A stretch of 5,098 bases of DNA from a virus. Taxonomy: Duplodnaviria > Heunggongvirae > Uroviricota > Caudoviricetes. The DNA is taken from positions 1-5,098 of IMG/VR virus record IMGVR_UViG_3300029074_000008; one strand, given 5' to 3'. This document shows positions 245 through 5,098 of the stretch, in pieces (within the stretch, counting starts at the first letter, position 1; each line of letters starts with the position of its first letter). The position numbers and the translations under genes were made by a program. The notes beneath the pieces are model-generated. The model was not told the DNA's origin, ran no database searches, and worked only from the letters and a program-made list of their open reading frames with translations.

Positions 245-273
245 TTGACATCAAACCAGATACGCATAATTAT
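245..273 (+). promoter_or_regulatory. Sigma70-type promoter (pL-like) driving the downstream + strand operon
   Basis: Perfect -35 consensus TTGACA at 245-250; 17-bp spacer; -10 candidate AATTAT at 268-273 (4/6 match, A2 and T6 present). An alternative -10, CATAAT at 265-270, has only a 14-bp spacer. It lies immediately after a terminator and before the first SD/ATG of the gene string. Confidence 0.55.
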
Positions 274-464: not shown

Positions 465-1499
465 ATGAGTGAATTATCAATCATCGAAATCACACCAGAC
501 ATGGCACCAAGAATTTACGTTGAAAAAGGGCTGGAAAAGTTTCTCGAGCAGATCCGTGAAGGTGTTAATGAAGTGCCTGACATTAGCACAGACAAAGGCA
601 GAAAGCGCATTGCATCTCTGGCTGCGAAGGTTTCAAGAAGTAAAACAGCGGTAGAAAAACCAGGACGTGATTATCTGAAACGCCTGAAAGAACAGCCGAA
701 AGTAGTTGAAGCAGAGTTACGACGCTTCGTAACCGAATGCGATCGGCTTCGTGATGAAGTACGCCGCCCACTCACCGAGTGGGAAAATGCTGAGAAATTA
801 CGCACTGAAGCACTGCAACAACGCCTGACAAATTTGCGAGCACTAGCTGACGTGATCGATCTCTCCGGAAACTACTTGCCATCATCTGATATTCAGGAAC
901 GAATTCAAGAGGCTAAATCAGTAGCACTTGATGAAAGTTGGCAGGAGTACGCAGCAGAAGCTGGAGTAGCCAAGGATTCAACCATCCAGAAACTGGAAGA
1001 ATCACTCGCAGTAGCTCAAAAACGCGAGCGTGAAGCCGCTGAGCTGGAGCGACTTCGCAAAGAAGCGGAGGAAAAAGCGCGCATTGAGCGAGAAGAGAAT
1101 ATCCGCCGGGAAGCTGCTGAACAGGCCAGGCTCGAAGCTGAACAAAAAGCGAAAGCTGAAATTGAGGCTGCGGCACGCCTGGCGGCGGAAGAAAAAGCAC
1201 GTGCAGAAGTAGCAGAACGTCAGCGAATTGAAGCAGAGCAGCGTGCACGACGCGAAAAAGAAGAAGCCGTTGCCGAGGAACGCCGACGCCAAGAGGCGGC
1301 AGAAAAAGCCCGCCTTGACGAACAGAAGCGTATCGCCGACGAAGAAGCGCGCCGAGCTGCAGATAAAGAGCATCGCCGTACCGTTAACCGCAGAGTAATC
1401 GCAGATCTGATAGCCCAAGGCATTCACGAAGAATTCGCGCAGAAAGCAATGTTGGCTATCGCTGGCGGCAAAGTGCAGGACGCGTATATCAAATATTGA
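465..1499 (+). CDS. Phage hypothetical protein (344 aa) with globular N- and C-terminal regions flanking a long ER/K-rich charged alpha-helical/coiled-coil segment
   Basis: Long ORF from the track; ATG 465 with AGGT 455-458 upstream. Residues about 185-300 are almost entirely E/A/R/K/Q (e.g. AEEKARIEREENIRREAAEQARLEAEQKAKAEIEAAARLAAEEKARAE...). Family not recognised with certainty. Confidence 0.85.
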   Translation: MSELSIIEITPDMAPRIYVEKGLEKFLEQIREGVNEVPDISTDKGRKRIASLAAKVSRSKTAVEKPGRDYLKRLKEQPKVVEAELRRFVTECDRLRDEVRRPLTEWENAEKLRTEALQQRLTNLRALADVIDLSGNYLPSSDIQERIQEAKSVALDESWQEYAAEAGVAKDSTIQKLEESLAVAQKREREAAELERLRKEAEEKARIEREENIRREAAEQARLEAEQKAKAEIEAAARLAAEEKARAEVAERQRIEAEQRARREKEEAVAEERRRQEAAEKARLDEQKRIADEEARRAADKEHRRTVNRRVIADLIAQGIHEEFAQKAMLAIAGGKVQDAYIKY

Positions 1500-1506
1500 G
1501 GTGGGT

Positions 1507-1806
1507 ATGAACGTTAATCAGCAGAAAAATCTTCAAAAAATCATGCTGGCATTCGACAAGGACTACCGTCTGTCAGAACAGCTATATGACCGACAAGTTG
1601 AACTGATTGAGAGTATCCGGCTTCATCAACTGGCATCAACTTTCGACGTTGTAACAGTTAAAGGCGTTCGCCAGGAAGTACTGGAGGCCGCTAAAGACAG
1701 CCCTGAGTTCGAAGAACTAATGGATGCCTACCGGCGCGAGGCAATGGCAATTATCGCCCGCTGGGATCTGGCTGATCAGCTTGATGGGCAGAGGGACGCG
1801 GCATGA
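1507..1806 (+). CDS. Small acidic hypothetical protein (99 aa), translationally coupled to the exonuclease gene
   Basis: ATG 1507 preceded by GAGGTGGG (1498-1505), which overlaps the upstream stop TGA 1497-1499; the track's GTG 1501 start is less likely. The stop TGA 1804-1806 overlaps the next start ATG 1803 (ATGA). By my hand count about 19 D/E versus 13 K/R. Confidence 0.8.
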   Translation: MNVNQQKNLQKIMLAFDKDYRLSEQLYDRQVELIESIRLHQLASTFDVVTVKGVRQEVLEAAKDSPEFEELMDAYRREAMAIIARWDLADQLDGQRDAA

Positions 1807-2624
1807 AACCGGGAATTTATTTCGACATCAGCAACGAAGACTACCACGCCGGTGACGGCGTGAGTAAGTCGCAACTGGACATGGTTGCCAAGAATCCGGC
1901 GCTTCTTAAATGGGTTCAGGCAGCACCAGAAGACGAAGAGAAAAAGTCTGCACTGGATATGGGAACCGCATTGCACTGTCTGCTTCTGGAGCCTGGAGAG
2001 TTCGACAAACGCTTCATTGTTTCACAGAAATTCGATCGTCGGACGAAACAAGGTAAAGCTGACGAAGAGGAATTTCTTCGTGATGTGGCGGATATGGGGA
2101 TTACGGTACTTGATGCCGAGCAGTGGCGGAAACTGGAGCTGATGCGTGATAGCGCAATGGCTCACCCGGCGGCACGCTGGATGCTGGAAGCACCTGGTTA
2201 CTGCGAAGCATCAATGTACTGGAACGATGAAGAGACGGGGGAGTTGTGCCGAATTCGTCCAGACAAATGGCTGAACGAGCACAACGTGATCGTCGACGTG
2301 AAAAAGGTTGCAGATATGGACCGTTTTGCACGCCACATCGAGGAATTCCGCTACCACGTGCAGGACGCAATGTACCGCGAAGGCGCAATGAGGGTTACTG
2401 GTCAGCCGCATGGTTTTTTCTTTCTTGCCGTGAGCGAAAGCATTGATTGTGGTCGGTATCCGGTACGCGTGTTCGAGCTGGATGCGCAGGATGTCGATGC
2501 CGGGCACGCTCTGTTCCGCCGGGATCTGAATACCTATCACGAATGCCGCATCAATGATGAATGGGGCGGTGTGGAAATCATTAAACGCCCTGAGTGGGCA
2601 CGCAAACAGGATATGTACATATGA
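1803..2624 (+). CDS. RecE-type (exonuclease VIII C-terminal-like) PD-(D/E)XK exonuclease, stand-alone nuclease domain (273 aa)
   Basis: ORF with SD GAGGGA (1791-1796) before ATG 1803. N-terminus MKPGIYFDISNEDYHAGDGVSKSQL resembles the start of the RecE-like PDDEXK nuclease domain as I remember it. PD...(D/E)XK-like motif in IRPDKWLNEHNVIVDVKKV (about 2255-2310). It sits immediately upstream of an annealing-protein gene. Confidence 0.75.
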   Translation: MKPGIYFDISNEDYHAGDGVSKSQLDMVAKNPALLKWVQAAPEDEEKKSALDMGTALHCLLLEPGEFDKRFIVSQKFDRRTKQGKADEEEFLRDVADMGITVLDAEQWRKLELMRDSAMAHPAARWMLEAPGYCEASMYWNDEETGELCRIRPDKWLNEHNVIVDVKKVADMDRFARHIEEFRYHVQDAMYREGAMRVTGQPHGFFFLAVSESIDCGRYPVRVFELDAQDVDAGHALFRRDLNTYHECRINDEWGGVEIIKRPEWARKQDMYI

Positions 2625-3562
2625 GCAACGACATCGCAAACATCAACGCACCAGTAGACACAGCAATCGCTGGAACTGCTGCAACTATTTTCAGCCCAGA
2701 CGGCTTGAACCAACTGATGAAATTCGCCGAGGTAATGGCGCAAAGCCGCGTAACGGTACCGGCGCACCTCGCCGGGAAACCAGCTGATTGCATGGCCGTG
2801 GCAATGCAGGCTGCGCAGTGGGGAATGAACCCGTTTGCCGTGGCTCAGAAAACCCATGTTGTGAACGGCACGCTAGGTTATGAAGCCCAATTAGTAAACG
2901 CAGTTATCTCAACGATGTCGCCAACAAAAGATCGCATCAACTACGAGTGGTTTGGGCCGTGGGAACGCGTGATCGGTAAGTTTGTTGAGAAAACATCCAA
3001 AAACGGCAATCCATATATCGCACCAGGCTGGACTCTAAAAGACGAAGAAGGCTGCGGTGTTCGCGTATGGGCAACCATGAAGGGCGAGGATCAACCTCGA
3101 GTGCTTGAGTTAATGCTGTCTCAAGCACAGGTAAGAAACTCCACACTTTGGGCCAGTGATCCGAAACAACAACTCGCATACCTTGCGACAAAACGCTGGT
3201 CTCGCCTGCACTGTCCTGACGTAATCATGGGCGTCTACACCCCAGACGAATTACAGGAAACGGCACCGCGCGTTGAGCGAGACATTACTCCGCAAACGAC
3301 AACTGCTGCGGGAATGAACAGTCTGATCAACGCTAAAACAGTGAAAAAGCCTGATGAGCAAACGCGTAAAGCGGATAGCCGTGATCCAGAAGAAATGCTG
3401 ATGGCCTTTACCAGCGCAGCGATGAATTACAGCACTGTCTCCGAACTGGATAAGGCTTACAAATACATTGCACAAAAACTTTCAGATGATGACGAACTGC
3501 TGGCAAAAGCCACCGACGTTTACAGCGTTCGTCGGGAAGAATTAAACGAAACATCTATGTAA
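2621..3562 (+). CDS. RecT/Red-beta-family single-strand annealing protein (313 aa)
   Basis: ATG 2621 overlaps the exonuclease stop (ATGA at 2621-2624); AGGA 2608-2611 upstream. Motif AMQAAQWGMNPFAVAQ (about 2816-2836) parallels lambda Bet ANQYGLNPWTKEIYAF (recalled from memory). Classic exonuclease-then-annealase gene order. The track's GTG 2594 start lacks an SD. Confidence 0.75.
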   Translation: MSNDIANINAPVDTAIAGTAATIFSPDGLNQLMKFAEVMAQSRVTVPAHLAGKPADCMAVAMQAAQWGMNPFAVAQKTHVVNGTLGYEAQLVNAVISTMSPTKDRINYEWFGPWERVIGKFVEKTSKNGNPYIAPGWTLKDEEGCGVRVWATMKGEDQPRVLELMLSQAQVRNSTLWASDPKQQLAYLATKRWSRLHCPDVIMGVYTPDELQETAPRVERDITPQTTTAAGMNSLINAKTVKKPDEQTRKADSRDPEEMLMAFTSAAMNYSTVSELDKAYKYIAQKLSDDDELLAKATDVYSVRREELNETSM

Positions 3563-3570
3563 CCACCACC

Positions 3571-3589
3571 GCGGCGCCACGCGCGCCGC
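3571..3589 (+). other. GC-rich perfect hairpin in the RecT/AlpA intergenic region (no U-tract)
   Basis: GCGGCGC (3571-3577), loop CACGC, GCGCCGC (3583-3589): 7 consecutive G:C pairs. Followed by ACTGCAACC, not a T-run, so not a canonical intrinsic terminator. Confidence 0.5.
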
Positions 3590-3611
3590 ACTGCAACCAA
3601 GAGAGGTATTT

Positions 3612-3860
3612 ATGAAAGGTGCATTAGGTAAGAAGGAACTCCTGGCGGTGGTGCCACTGTCATGGAGCACTATCGACCGTATGGAGCGCGCAGGTGAATT
3701 TCCTAAACGCTGGTATATCACTGACAAACGCTGCGCATGGAACCGTGACGAAGTTGAGCGTTGGCTTGATGAACGTCAGGCAGCAAGCCCGGCAGAGTTC
3801 CAGGGTAAAAAGCCTCCTGTTCAGCAACGTGTATATCGTCCTGTGAGCAACGCTGCATGA
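3612..3860 (+). CDS. AlpA/Xis-family winged-helix DNA-binding protein (82 aa)
   Basis: SD GAGAGG (3601-3606) 5 nt before ATG 3612. Translation ...ELLAVVPLSWSTIDRMERAGEFPKRWYITDKRCAWNRDEVERWL fits the AlpA/excisionase pattern (S-x-ST-I-x-R ... G-x-FP-K ... W-x-x-x-E-V-x-x-W) as I recall it. Confidence 0.75.
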   Translation: MKGALGKKELLAVVPLSWSTIDRMERAGEFPKRWYITDKRCAWNRDEVERWLDERQAASPAEFQGKKPPVQQRVYRPVSNAA

Positions 3861-3885
3861 GTGCGCTGCTAAGGCACTGGAGCAA

Positions 3886-3969
3886 ATGGTCAGGATGGTA
3901 CTTATTCCTGGCCTCTGTTTCAGCATGGCTTTATCTGCTGGCATTAATTTTCAGAGAGGGTTGGATTAA
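3886..3969 (+). CDS. Candidate 27-aa hydrophobic mini-ORF (speculative)
   Basis: ATG 3886 (GGAG 3878-3881 only about 4 nt upstream, so spacing is short); stop TAA 3967-3969. Translation MVRMVLIPGLCFSMALSAGINFQRGLD has a roughly 19-residue hydrophobic stretch. It is in the same frame as the next ORF, separated only by the TAA. Confidence 0.2.
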   Translation: MVRMVLIPGLCFSMALSAGINFQRGLD

Positions 3970-4269
3970 GTGAGAAAGTTAAGCCGACTTGAAAAATATC
4001 ACATGAACAAGGTTTCAATGCGCAGCCCTTCAAAGATTGTCGCCGTTACTCCTGCGGCGATAGAGATCGAAAAACGCGCGATTGAAAGAGAGAAAAAAGG
4101 GCAATTCCGCATTGCCGCTCACCTTTGGCTTCAGTGTATGGATGTTGCTTCTGGTGATGTTGAACGTGCAAGGATCGCGGTTCGCAGGGACCAATGTATC
4201 ACAAAAGGTAACGGCCTTCGCCGTGGCGACTATAGCGGCATAGGATGTTGTGGGGTGGTTTATGACTAA
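3970..4269 (+). CDS. Small hypothetical protein (99 aa from GTG 3970; 88 or 83 aa if it starts at ATG 4003 or ATG 4018); possibly a small regulator
   Basis: ORF from the track. The start is ambiguous: GTG 3970 directly follows an in-frame TAA. C-terminal CC pair ([10 protein letters not shown]). The segment FRIAAHLWLQCMDVASGDVERARIAVRRDQC vaguely recalls small prophage ANR-type regulators, but I cannot confirm this. Stop TAA 4267-4269 overlaps the MTase ATG 4262. Confidence 0.65.
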   Translation: MRKLSRLEKYHMNKVSMRSPSKIVAVTPAAIEIEKRAIEREKKGQFRIAAHLWLQCMDVASGDVERARIAVRRDQCITKGNGLRRGDYSGIGCCGVVYD

Positions 4270-4912
4270 GAAATACACACTAATCTATGCAGATCCACCC
4301 TGGGTATACCGGGACAAAGCCGCAGATGGTAATCGCGGTGCCAGTTTTAAATATCCGGTTATGAGTGTGATGGATATCTGCCGCCTTCCTGTGTGGGATT
4401 TGGCCGATGAAAACTGTCTGTTGGCCATGTGGTGGGTGCCAACACAACCACTCGAAGCGCTAAAAGTTGTTGAAGCCTGGGGATTCCGTCTGATGACCAT
4501 GAAGGGCTTCACGTGGATAAAATGTGGTAGTCGACAACCAGATAAACTGGTTATGGGTATGGGGCACATGACTCGCGCCAATAGTGAAGATTGCCTGTTT
4601 GCGGTAAAGGGAAAGCTACCTACGCGCATTAATGCAGGGATCGTTCAGTCATTTACCGCACCGCGGCTTGAGCATTCAAGAAAACCAGATATCGTTCGTG
4701 AAAAACTTGTGCAATTGTTAGGCGATGTTTCTCGCATTGAACTGTTCGCCCGCCAGACGTCTCATGGCTTCGATGTTTGGGGTAATCAGTGCGAAGACCC
4801 GGCAGTGCAACTACACCCTGGATACGCGTTGGATATTGGCGGATTAACAAATGCATTCAGCAATGCTCCGGTGTCACCAATAGACAACCAGGGGCGGGAG
4901 CGTGCAGCATGA
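4262..4912 (+). CDS. MT-A70-family N6-adenine DNA methyltransferase (216 aa), apparently orphan (no cognate nuclease in window)
   Basis: Motif IYADPPW (DPPW, catalytic motif IV; GAT at 4292-4294) near the N-terminus, and EHSRKPD near the C-terminal third. The ATG 4262 start is preferred over the track's GTG 4250. The stop TGA 4910-4912 overlaps the next ATG 4909. Confidence 0.85.
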
Positions 4913-5049
4913 ACCTATATCAACGCATCAATGGCGCTGACTGGTGCAATATCTTCGTCGTCGGCGATCTGCATGGGTGCTACACGCTGCTGATGAACGA
5001 ACTCGACAAAGTTTCATTCGACCCACTCAATTATTTACGACAAACATAA
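4909..5049 (+). pseudogene. Truncated lambda-type Ser/Thr protein phosphatase (metallophosphoesterase): only the N-terminal 46 codons
   Basis: [39 protein letters not shown] closely parallels the lambda PPase N-terminus (...[25 protein letters not shown]..., recalled) and includes the GDxHG metal-binding motif. Similarity stops after FDP (about 5025) and the frame ends at TAA 5047-5049. No continuation with the expected second motif (roughly ISVGDL-DRG) exists in any + frame of the remaining about 70 nt. Confidence 0.7.
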
Positions 5050-5098
5050 CCAATTGAGTGATAACAACTTTCTCATAACTTACTTCCACCGTACCGTT

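What the first reader, a model, noticed from the sequence alone, without database searches (positions are those of the whole stretch)
3612..4912. Accessory module after the recombination genes: AlpA-like regulator, small proteins and an orphan MT-A70 adenine methyltransferase
Seen in sequence: an AlpA/Xis-like DNA-binding protein, then a 110-bp gap, then a small basic Cys-containing protein whose stop overlaps the start of an MT-A70 DNA adenine methyltransferase. Established knowledge: phage-borne orphan adenine MTases commonly protect phage DNA from host restriction, and AlpA-type proteins act as transcriptional activators or excision factors in P4-like elements. No integrase or nuclease partner is visible in the window. 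Inference: a self-protection or anti-restriction module whose MTase specificity and small coupled partner are uncharacterised. The partner could be a specificity or regulatory subunit.
Basis: partly seen in the sequence, partly recalled or inferred. Interest (0 to 1): 0.45.

Follow-up and report, generated by a model that had tools for sequence, protein, structure and literature searches.

The report
Prophage DNA-methylase module with PerC partner
This is the ordinary, already-annotated tail end of an early operon of a phiV10/epsilon15-type E. coli phage (a DNA-binding AlpA protein, a tiny membrane peptide, a PerC-type protein and a lone adenine methylase); the one new lead is that PerC-type genes sit directly in front of DNA-modification genes in many phages.

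Summary
The ORFs are real. The interval is 98-99% identical to annotated genes of phage phiV10 and to prophages in 638 of 5426 complete E. coli genomes.

It holds four translationally coupled genes, not three genes and a gap:
- an AlpA-family winged-helix protein (3612-3860);
- a 99-aa PerC-family protein (3970-4269);
- an MT-A70, DPPW-motif adenine methyltransferase (4262-4912) with no nuclease partner.

No promoter-like site lies inside the interval. It reads as the distal part of the early-left operon, driven from about 245-273.

In intact relatives a phosphatase gene and a P4-type integrase follow. Here a deletion of about 2 kb removes most of the phosphatase gene, the integrase and probably the att core.

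The small partner is unlikely to be a specificity subunit. 58 of 80 MT-A70 homologue loci lack it. The same PerC subfamily directly precedes adenine methylases of three different Pfam families, and also a DpdA-like gene.

This recurrent "PerC-led DNA-modification cassette" was not found in the literature searched. It is the only novel lead. Function is inferred throughout, not shown.

Verdict: a known gene set, partly mis-described, of modest interest.

The parts
245..273 (+). Promoter-like site (TTGACA-17-AATTAT), just after the terminator (174-193) of the repressor-like gene. It is the likely start of the early-left operon that includes the finding.
   Evidence: 10 of 12 matches; terminator 174-193. 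No other promoter-like site in 3400-5098. Same position relative to the repressor-like gene as in phiV10 and BE311.
3612..3860 (+). AlpA-family winged-helix DNA-binding protein (82 aa, pI 9.7). Probable recombination directionality factor and/or transcription regulator.
   Evidence: PF05930, 3.1e-5, above the cut-off; phrog_66 'excisionase and transcriptional regulator', 2e-16; PDB 8c3t, 1.8e-11. Homologue of PhiV10p36.
3857..3973 (+). Conserved 38-aa single-pass membrane peptide.
   Evidence: phrog_17484, 2.6e-27, full length; annotated PhiV10p35 'membrane protein'; protein-level conservation in 6-7 other genera; overlaps ATGA and GTGA.
3970..4269 (+). Short-form PerC-family protein (99 aa, pI 9.8, 4 Cys). 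PerC core at about residues 35-80; C-terminal DYSGI...VVYD tail.
   Evidence: PF06069, 6e-7, above the cut-off; phrog_868 over 1-99, 5.7e-62; BLASTP to PchA, 40% over 40 aa, and hhalign 96.9%; start supported.
4262..4912 (+). Orphan MT-A70 (class beta) N6-adenine methyltransferase, 216 aa. ADPPW motif at residues 10-14; 8-nt overlap with the PerC-family gene.
   Evidence: PF05063, 1.2e-22; PDB Tetrahymena MTA1 7f4r, 2.3e-13, and METTL3, 4e-6, aligned over about 165 residues; PADLOC MTase_II, 6e-78; 2579 homologues.
4909..5049 (+). 5' fragment of a NinI/PrpA-like Ser/Thr phosphatase gene (ATGA overlap with the methylase stop). Homology ends at 5024; the ORF then runs into foreign sequence to a stop at 5049.
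   Evidence: phrog_246, 2e-17, and NF008516, 1.5e-12, for residues 1-42 only. The full 219-aa gene is present in BE311 and PAS61.
5022..5098 (.). Deletion junction and the sequence that in phiV10-type genomes lies 200-260 nt beyond the start of the integrase gene. The integrase and probably the att core are missing here.
   Evidence: no complete E. coli genome spans the junction; the tail matches phiV10 L002 11511-11569 at 90%. The junction is absent from IMG/VR and JGI metagenomes.

Best explanation
Shown:
- The interval is the promoter-distal part of the early-left operon of an epsilon15/phiV10-type temperate podophage (Uetakevirus) of E. coli.
- It holds four back-to-back genes with overlapping stops and starts: AlpA-family protein, 38-aa membrane peptide, 99-aa PerC-family protein, and MT-A70 adenine methyltransferase.
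- These are followed by a truncated phosphatase gene.
- A PerC-family gene is a recurrent 'leader' of phage DNA-modification genes, lying directly upstream of them, usually with stop/start overlap.

Inferred:
- The genes are transcribed together with recE/recT from the promoter-like site at about 245-273, on infection or derepression.
- The AlpA protein is the excision (directionality) factor and/or regulator for the P4-type integrase that follows in intact relatives. In this deleted copy it has no integrase to work with.
- The methylase, probably a homodimer like other class beta enzymes, puts m6A on replicating phage DNA. Progeny would then escape restriction in the next host.
- The PerC-type protein is not part of the enzyme. 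By analogy with Pch, which relieves H-NS silencing, it is most likely a small helical-hairpin adaptor. It would control or enable expression of the modification genes, or their access to DNA.
For: Identity and context:
- 98-99% DNA identity to phiV10 and to prophages in 638 of 5426 E. coli genomes, with the same gene order.
- Family assignments.
- A single transcription unit is suggested by the 4-8 nt overlaps at every junction, by the lack of any promoter-like site or + strand terminator in 3400-5098, and by the promoter-like site at 245-273.

PerC-modification link, anchored on PerC:
- In 11 look-ups of different PerC clusters, the next gene was MT-A70 four times, T1-type Dam (PF05869) four times, D12-class Dam (PF02086) once, a DpdA-like gene (phrog_887, 2e-94) once, and deleted once.
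- 74 of 81 PerC hits in YfdN-anchored IMG/VR loci are followed by Dam.
- Named examples: K-12 yfdN-yfdM, SfV orf40-dam, ST64B sb43-sb44 and F1055.

The pair occurs in three arrangements:
- recT-alpA-38aa-PerC-methylase-int in phiV10-type phages;
- rep-PerC-methylase-RusA in lambdoid phages;
- RusA-PerC-Dam in L269.

Other support:
- All cassette-linked PerC proteins share a C-terminal Y/W-x-L/S-x-G...Y/F-V-G tail that PchA lacks.
- Pch acts by displacing H-NS (PMC4764244).
Against: - Nothing is shown experimentally. No paper on this methylase clade, or on a PerC-methylase link, was found.
- 58 of 80 MT-A70 loci lack PerC, so the enzyme does not need it.
- In lambdoid phages the methylase slot is a positional hot spot. 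RusA and the replication gene are also frequent neighbours, so part of the association may be synteny rather than function.
- My PerC profile was built from methylase-adjacent proteins. Stand-alone PerC/Pch genes such as pchA have no methylase nearby.
- Apparent PerC-methylase fusion proteins (P0003, P0241) may be frameshift artefacts; P0242 is an obvious chimera.
- The structure model of the methylase failed (pLDDT 42).
- The MT-A70 family also contains RNA methylases.
- The AlpA protein shows no significant pairwise similarity to the known directionality factor TorI.
Confidence: 0.55

Rival explanations
1. The 99-aa protein is a subunit of the methyltransferase, either a specificity or a DNA-targeting partner. 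This is the first reader's suggestion, and it would parallel the p1/p2 DNA-binding partners of the ciliate MT-A70 complex MTA1c.
For: - Stop/start overlap and co-inheritance with the methylase across 41-100% methylase identity.
- Each PerC cluster at 60% identity is tied to one methylase family.
- Long forms carry an N-terminal winged helix that could bind DNA.
- From established knowledge: class beta methylases work as dimers or complexes.
Against: - 58 of 80 MT-A70 homologues have no PerC gene nearby.
- The same PerC subfamily, with the same tail, precedes three non-homologous methylase families and a DpdA-like transglycosylase. This is hard to reconcile with a specific protein-protein interface.
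- In several phiV10-type loci, unrelated genes (DndB-like, PD-(D/E)XK, unknown) are inserted between the two.
- The window's short form has no DNA-binding domain.
Confidence: 0.1
2. There is no functional link. The PerC-type protein is an independent transcription activator or anti-silencer (or moron). It merely shares a mosaic slot with modification genes, and the methylase is a separately selected anti-restriction gene.
For: - The methylase slot in lambdoid phages is variable, and it is also flanked by the replication gene and RusA.
- Methylases occur in the same slot without PerC.
- Six YfdN-type loci, and the locus of PerC cluster P0182, keep PerC but have lost the methylase.
- Canonical PchA stands alone in a late-region moron position.
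Against: - The pair recurs in three different gene orders, including the phiV10 early-left operon, which has neither a replication gene nor RusA nearby.
- About 90% of sampled cassette-type PerC genes are followed by a modification gene.
- A subfamily-specific tail motif is shared only by the cassette-linked forms.
Confidence: 0.3
3. The methylase is not mainly for escape from restriction. It may instead act in regulation, for example methylation-dependent control of phage or host promoters, replication or packaging. It may even methylate RNA, as other MT-A70 enzymes do.
For: - The closest solved relatives include the RNA enzyme METTL3 as well as the DNA enzyme MTA1.
- Some sources name homologues 'N6-adenosine-specific RNA methylase IME4' or 'transcriptional activator, adenine-specific DNA methyltransferase'.
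- It is paired with a protein from a family of transcription regulators.
Against: - The best PDB match is the DNA 6mA enzyme MTA1 (2.3e-13, against 4e-6 for METTL3).
- A REBASE-derived Type II DNA methylase model matches at 6e-78.
- Unrelated DNA adenine methylases (Dam types) replace it in the same cassette position.
Confidence: 0.15

Closest known systems
Escherichia phage phiV10 genes PhiV10p36-p33 (and epsilon15 gp33-gp30), genus Uetakevirus
   Same: Same four genes in the same order, at about 98% DNA identity. They are annotated as AlpA family regulator, membrane protein, PerC-family transcriptional activator and DNA methyltransferase, and are followed by a P4-type integrase.
   Different: The window has a NinI-like phosphatase gene instead of DUF1382 after the methylase. 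It also has two extra genes upstream of recE (344 aa, 101 aa), separate recE and recT, and a deletion of about 2 kb that removes the integrase. None of these genes has been tested experimentally in the literature searched.
PerC (EPEC) and PchA/B/C (EHEC) virulence regulators, Pfam PF06069
   Same: They share the helical core of about 47 residues (LE-KG-LYRRAA-W...RR-CL). Pfam score is above the cut-off, and hhalign gives 96.9% probability to PchA. Pch relieves H-NS silencing of LEE1 (PMC4764244).
   Different: PchA is a stand-alone late-region moron next to lysis genes, with no methylase nearby. It has a different C-terminal half. The window protein has an N-terminal extension and the DYSGI...VVYD tail typical of cassette-linked forms. 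Activity on ler/LEE or on H-NS was not tested.
E. coli K-12 CPS-53 yfdN-yfdM; Shigella phage SfV orf40-dam; Salmonella phage ST64B sb43-sb44; Salmonella phage F1055
   Same: A PerC-domain gene whose stop overlaps the start of an N6-adenine methylase gene.
   Different: These are long forms (winged helix plus PerC, 157-174 aa). The methylases belong to other families: T1-type Dam PF05869, and D12 PF02086 in F1055. They lie in the lambdoid replication-to-RusA region, not in an early-left recombination operon.
Phage orphan adenine methyltransferases (T1 Dam, T4 Dam, P1 Dmt and others)
   Same: A phage-borne methylase with no nuclease partner, expressed early. From established knowledge, the accepted role is protection of phage DNA from host restriction.
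   Different: It belongs to a different family (MT-A70, class beta, only 216 aa, with no obvious target-recognition domain). Its specificity is unknown.
Mu com-mom and the C (controller) proteins of restriction-modification systems
   Same: A small regulatory gene lies immediately upstream of, and overlaps, a DNA-modification gene. This is an analogy from established knowledge.
   Different: There is no sequence relationship. The PerC core is a TPR-like hairpin, not a zinc finger or an HTH. No regulatory activity has been shown.
Eukaryotic MT-A70 complexes (METTL3-METTL14; ciliate MTA1-MTA9-p1-p2)
   Same: The same catalytic fold and DPPW motif. PDB hits are 7f4r at 2.3e-13 and METTL3 at 4e-6.
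   Different: The bacterial or phage enzyme is a minimal single domain. No paralogous inactive partner is encoded nearby.
AlpA (CP4-57), P4 Vis, TorI: small winged-helix regulators or directionality factors of P4-type integrase elements
   Same: The Pfam Phage_AlpA domain, and the presence of a P4-type integrase in the same element in intact relatives.
   Different: The gene lies 1.2-1.7 kb from int, with three or four genes between, rather than adjacent to it. There is no significant pairwise similarity to TorI. The integrase is absent from this window.

Membership tests
MT-A70 / class beta N6-adenine methyltransferases (PF05063) | Profile match above the curated cut-off over the whole domain | tested here: met
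   81.1 bits against 23.9; residues 9-180 match profile positions 1-172 of 172.
MT-A70 / class beta N6-adenine methyltransferases (PF05063) | Catalytic motif IV (DPPW) near the N-terminus, ahead of the SAM-binding motif (permuted order) | tested here: met
   ADPPW at residues 10-14, aligned with DPPW of MTA1. The C-terminal IELFAR segment aligns with lEiFARr. Invariant or nearly invariant in 14 homologues.
MT-A70 / class beta N6-adenine methyltransferases (PF05063) | m6A-forming activity, and its substrate (DNA or RNA) and motif | not testable with these tools
   No experiment was found in the literature searched.
Type II restriction-modification system | A cognate restriction endonuclease encoded next to the methylase | tested here: not met
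   The neighbours are the PerC-family gene and a phosphatase or DUF1382 gene, then the integrase. PADLOC hits only MTase_II. The methylase is therefore an orphan.
PerC family (PF06069) | Profile match above the curated cut-off; homology to a characterised member | tested here: met
   30.1 bits against 22.6. PchA: BLASTP 40% over 40 aa (1e-6) and hhalign 96.9%, E 2e-10.
PerC family (PF06069) | Activation of LEE1/ler, or relief of H-NS silencing | not testable with these tools
   Known for Pch only (PMC4764244).
PerC family (PF06069) | Stand-alone regulator gene, as for perC on the EAF plasmid or pch in prophage late regions | tested here: not met
   Here the gene is inside an early operon and overlaps a methylase gene. 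pchA in Sakai has no methylase nearby.
ANR (AraC negative regulator) family, NF033650 | Profile match above the curated cut-off | tested here: not met
   23.6 bits against a cut-off of 32. Related, but not a member by NCBI's threshold.
Phage_AlpA (PF05930) | Profile match above the cut-off; similarity to a solved AlpA-family protein | tested here: met
   24.2 bits against 21; 8c3t, 1.8e-11 over residues 2-59.
Recombination directionality factor (excisionase) of a P4-type integrase element | An integrase in the same element, and no other candidate excisionase | tested here: inconclusive
   Met in the relatives BE311, phiV10 and PAS61, where no other excisionase is annotated in the stretches examined. 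Not met in this window, where int is deleted. Excision activity cannot be tested here.
Proposed PerC-led DNA-modification cassette (not a described family) | A PerC-domain gene directly upstream of a DNA-modification gene, with stop/start overlap and the C-terminal YxGx...VG-type tail | tested here: met
   ATGACTAA overlap; tail [13 protein letters not shown] aligned with the tails of cassette-linked forms.

The most novel reading that the evidence does not exclude
PerC-domain proteins with the conserved C-terminal tail are dedicated leader or regulator proteins of phage DNA-modification cassettes. These cassettes carry adenine methylases of three unrelated families, and DpdA-like deazaguanine transglycosylases. 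The proteins may work by clearing H-NS-type nucleoid proteins or by timing expression. On this reading, the virulence regulators PerC and Pch of EPEC and EHEC would be derived (exapted) from this phage module.
Probability: 0.3. Interest if true: 0.6.

Novelty: new variant of a known kind. Interest (0 to 1): 0.35.

Why it matters
As a gene set this is routine. It is present in about 12% of complete E. coli genomes and has been annotated since phiV10 was sequenced.

Two things could matter:
- The MT-A70 clade of phage methylases is large (2579 homologues), and no experimental study of it was found in the literature searched. Its specificity would bear on phage host range and on reading E. coli methylomes.
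- If PerC-type proteins really are partners of DNA-modification genes, that would give a first ancestral, phage-side function to a family known only as regulators of the LEE virulence island. It would also provide a simple genomic marker for modification cassettes.

Tried and rejected
- I recalled M.EcoGIX of E. coli O104:H4 as a possible relative. The papers show it is a plasmid-borne single-strand-specific enzyme, so it is not relevant. M.EcoGII is a non-specific class beta enzyme of a prophage, but no relationship was established.
- The AlphaFold2 model of the methylase, built from a 14-sequence alignment, was unusable (mean pLDDT 42). No fold search was run.
- Fusion proteins as 'Rosetta stone' evidence: P0003 (PerC plus MT-A70, 95% identical to the window pair) and P0241 (YfdN plus Dam) could be frameshift or gene-calling artefacts, and P0242 (PerC plus baseplate J) clearly is one. 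I did not use them.
- The search for related loci with the diverse PerC alignment failed because no conserved stretch was found. The single-protein scans returned near-identical loci, or in one case a single locus.
- Rfam: nothing near threshold in the window.
- NCBIfam: no equivalog for any of the four proteins.
- PADLOC: only MTase_II.
- AlpA against TorI: not significant.
- No paper citing PDB 8c3t was found.
- Source of the window: the junction 5010-5045 and the 46-aa product were not found in IMG/VR, JGI metagenomes or the gene index.
Full report
**What is in the interval**

The + strand of 3612-4912 carries a chain of ORFs whose stops and starts overlap:
- 3612-3860 (82 aa);
- 3857-3973 (38 aa; ATGA overlap with the previous gene);
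- 3970-4269 (99 aa; GTGA overlap);
- 4262-4912 (216 aa; ATGACTAA overlap);
- an ORF starting at 4909 (ATGA overlap).

Family assignments (all Pfam matches are above the curated cut-offs):
- The 82-aa protein is Phage_AlpA. It also matches phrog_66 'excisionase and transcriptional regulator' and the solved AlpA-family protein 8c3t at 1.8e-11.
- The 99-aa protein is PerC family (PF06069).
- The 216-aa protein is MT-A70 (PF05063).
- The 38-aa ORF matches phrog_17484 'membrane protein' over its full length at 2.6e-27.

The methylase has ADPPW at residues 10-14. It aligns over about 165 residues with the DNA 6mA enzyme MTA1 of Tetrahymena (2.3e-13) and with METTL3 (4e-6). It also matches a REBASE-derived Type II methylase model at 6e-78.

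The '110-bp gap' is a gene. The 'small basic Cys-containing protein' (pI 9.8, 4 Cys) has a family name.

**Where it comes from**

The window is 98-99% identical to phage phiV10 and its relatives in the genus Uetakevirus (epsilon15-like podophages). The 3500-5098 stretch is found in 638 of 5426 complete E. coli genomes.

In phiV10 the four genes are already annotated as PhiV10p36 to PhiV10p33: AlpA family regulator, membrane protein, PerC-family transcriptional activator and DNA methyltransferase.

In the prophage of strain BE311 the order is: repressor-like HTH gene, small genes, recE-like, recT, alpA, perC, MT-A70, Ser/Thr phosphatase, a convergent P4-type integrase, then guaA.

The window starts in the 3' end of the repressor-like gene. 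It has a terminator at 174-193 and a promoter-like site at 245-273. There is no promoter-like site and no + strand terminator in 3400-5098. With the overlaps, this argues for one early-left transcript. That is an inference, not a measurement.

**Gene starts and the small ORFs**

RefSeq starts the PerC-type gene at 4018, and the phiV10 record at 4003. In five diverged loci (Superficieibacter, Scandinavium, Kluyvera, and two Citrobacter species) an ATG sits exactly where the window has GTG 3970. It is preceded by a GAGGG-like Shine-Dalgarno sequence, and the N-terminal LxKYH...V segment is conserved even in Buttiauxella. Phage PAS61 is annotated with the 99-aa and 38-aa forms.

The 38-aa peptide is conserved as protein in the same loci.

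**The window end**

Similarity to the phosphatase gene stops at 5024. No complete E. coli genome spans the junction.

The last 60-75 nt match phiV10-type genomes 200-260 nt beyond the start of the integrase gene. The window therefore carries a deletion of about 2 kb. It removes most of the phosphatase gene, the whole integrase and probably the att core.

The junction was not found elsewhere. 'No integrase in the window' is true. The element type has one; this copy has lost it.

**Is the small protein a partner of the methylase?**

Anchoring on the methylase, I fetched 80 loci from different species. The gene directly upstream varies: NinB-like, NinG-like, replication protein, ParB-like, C5-methylase-like and others.
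- A PerC-domain ORF is directly adjacent in 10 loci.
- It lies within 1.6 kb upstream in 12 more.
- It is absent in 58.

So the enzyme does not need it.

Anchoring on PerC gives the opposite picture. In 11 look-ups of different PerC clusters, the next gene was:
- MT-A70 in 4;
- T1-type Dam (PF05869) in 4;
- D12-class Dam (PF02086) in 1;
- a DpdA-like gene (phrog_887 'queuine tRNA-ribosyltransferase', 2e-94) in 1. In L068 this gene is itself followed by MT-A70.
- deleted in 1.

In YfdN-anchored IMG/VR loci, 74 of 81 PerC hits are followed by Dam. Six of the other seven have lost the methylase gene and run into the next gene of the row, a LexA_DNA_bind ORF. The seventh is a second PerC-like hit cut off by the contig end.

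Named cases are K-12 yfdN-yfdM, SfV orf40-dam, ST64B sb43-sb44 and F1055, the last with a D12 methylase.

The pair occurs in three gene orders:
- the phiV10 early-left operon;
- the lambdoid replication-PerC-methylase-RusA row;
- RusA-PerC-Dam in L269.

In some phiV10-type loci other genes are inserted between the two: DndB-like, PD-(D/E)XK and ParB-HTH.

All cassette-linked PerC proteins, whatever follows them, share a C-terminal tail (W/Y-x-L/S-x-G...Y/F-V-G; DYSGI...VVYD in the window). PchA lacks it.

**What this means**

A specificity-subunit role would need one small protein family to fit three unrelated methylase folds and a transglycosylase. It would also need most MT-A70 enzymes to do without it. 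I rate it unlikely.

The asymmetry is the main point. PerC is almost always followed by a modification gene, while methylases often lack PerC. Together with the three gene orders, this suggests the PerC-type protein is an accessory to DNA modification.

The only characterised relatives, Pch and PerC, are transcription activators. For Pch this works by displacing H-NS (PMC4764244). My best guess is therefore a small adaptor that controls expression of modification genes or opens H-NS-bound DNA for them. The core looks TPR-like: long repeat proteins match profile positions 73-119 many times, and there is a weak PDB hit to a TPR domain. This is inference.

**Caveats**
- In lambdoid phages the methylase slot is a positional hot spot, and RusA and the replication gene are also frequent neighbours.
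- My PerC profile was seeded from methylase-adjacent proteins.
- pchA in EHEC Sakai stands alone in a late-region moron position.
- Each PerC cluster at 60% identity goes with a single methylase family. This fits either co-evolution or plain linkage.
- No paper linking PerC or YfdN to methylases was found. The library does not hold most subscription-journal papers.

**AlpA**

In intact relatives the element has a P4-type integrase, and no other excisionase is annotated in the stretches I examined. A directionality-factor role is therefore the simplest reading. A purely regulatory role, as known for AlpA-type proteins, cannot be excluded. Pairwise similarity to TorI is not significant.

**Comparison with the known, and novelty**

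The gene set is known and annotated. The methylase is a new, untested member of the phage orphan methylase class. The arrangement resembles Mu com-mom or the C-protein-controlled modification genes in layout only.

The conserved PerC-led cassette is, as far as I could find, undescribed. I file the whole as a new variant of a known kind, with modest interest (0.35). The most novel reading still open is given separately, at 0.3 probability.

Noticed in passing
window 5022-5098: A deletion junction. The phosphatase gene is cut after about codon 39 and joined to sequence that in phiV10-type genomes lies beyond the integrase start. The integrase and probably the att core are missing. No other public sequence searched has this junction.
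   Followed up: partly
window 465-1806: Two genes lie upstream of recE. Both are absent from phiV10 but present in phage phiv142-3. One is a 344-aa protein with a long Glu/Arg/Ala-rich coiled-coil-like middle (phrog_1376, 1e-121). The other is a 101-aa acidic protein (phrog_856, 5e-55). Both are of unknown function, and homologues recur near MT-A70 loci in other genera.
   Followed up: no
window 1803-3562: The recE-like gene (DUF3799, PD-(D/E)XK) and recT are separate, overlapping genes here. In the phiV10 record they are annotated as one fused 1761-nt RecET gene.
   Followed up: no
window 3571-3589: A GC-rich hairpin (7-bp stem GCGGCGC/GCGCCGC, 5-nt loop) lies in the 49-nt spacer between recT and alpA, with no T-tail. 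RNA folding energy is -17.3 kcal/mol and the z-score -2.05. It may be a processing or stability element, or chance.
   Followed up: partly
L068 5233-5985; L270 1298-1615; also L050, L059: A 250-aa DpdA-like protein (phrog_887 'queuine tRNA-ribosyltransferase', 2e-94; no Pfam hit) sits between a PerC-domain gene and an MT-A70 gene, or directly upstream of MT-A70. This suggests combined deazaguanine and m6A modification cassettes in enterobacterial prophages.
   Followed up: partly
L012 4937-6004; L007 5417-5995; L069 5147-5995; L071 4673-5995: In relatives, the space between the PerC-type gene and the MT-A70 gene is an insertion hot spot. It holds a DndB-like gene (PF14072, 4e-48), a PD-(D/E)XK-like gene (below the cut-off) and ParB-HTH genes.
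   Followed up: no
Alignment A1 columns 86-126 (window methylase residues about 86-100): The methylase family has one sharply variable loop in two main versions ([13 protein letters not shown] against HKTNKHKGNSAI), plus a 20-residue insertion in P0070. The rest of the scaffold is otherwise highly conserved. This loop is a candidate determinant of target specificity.
   Followed up: no
L003 8113-8882 (E. coli K-12 CPS-53): The uncharacterised K-12 protein YfdN is a winged-helix plus PerC-domain protein (PF06069, 8e-9). Its stop overlaps yfdM, a 91-aa remnant of a T1-type Dam methylase (PF05869, 2.5e-23).
   Followed up: yes
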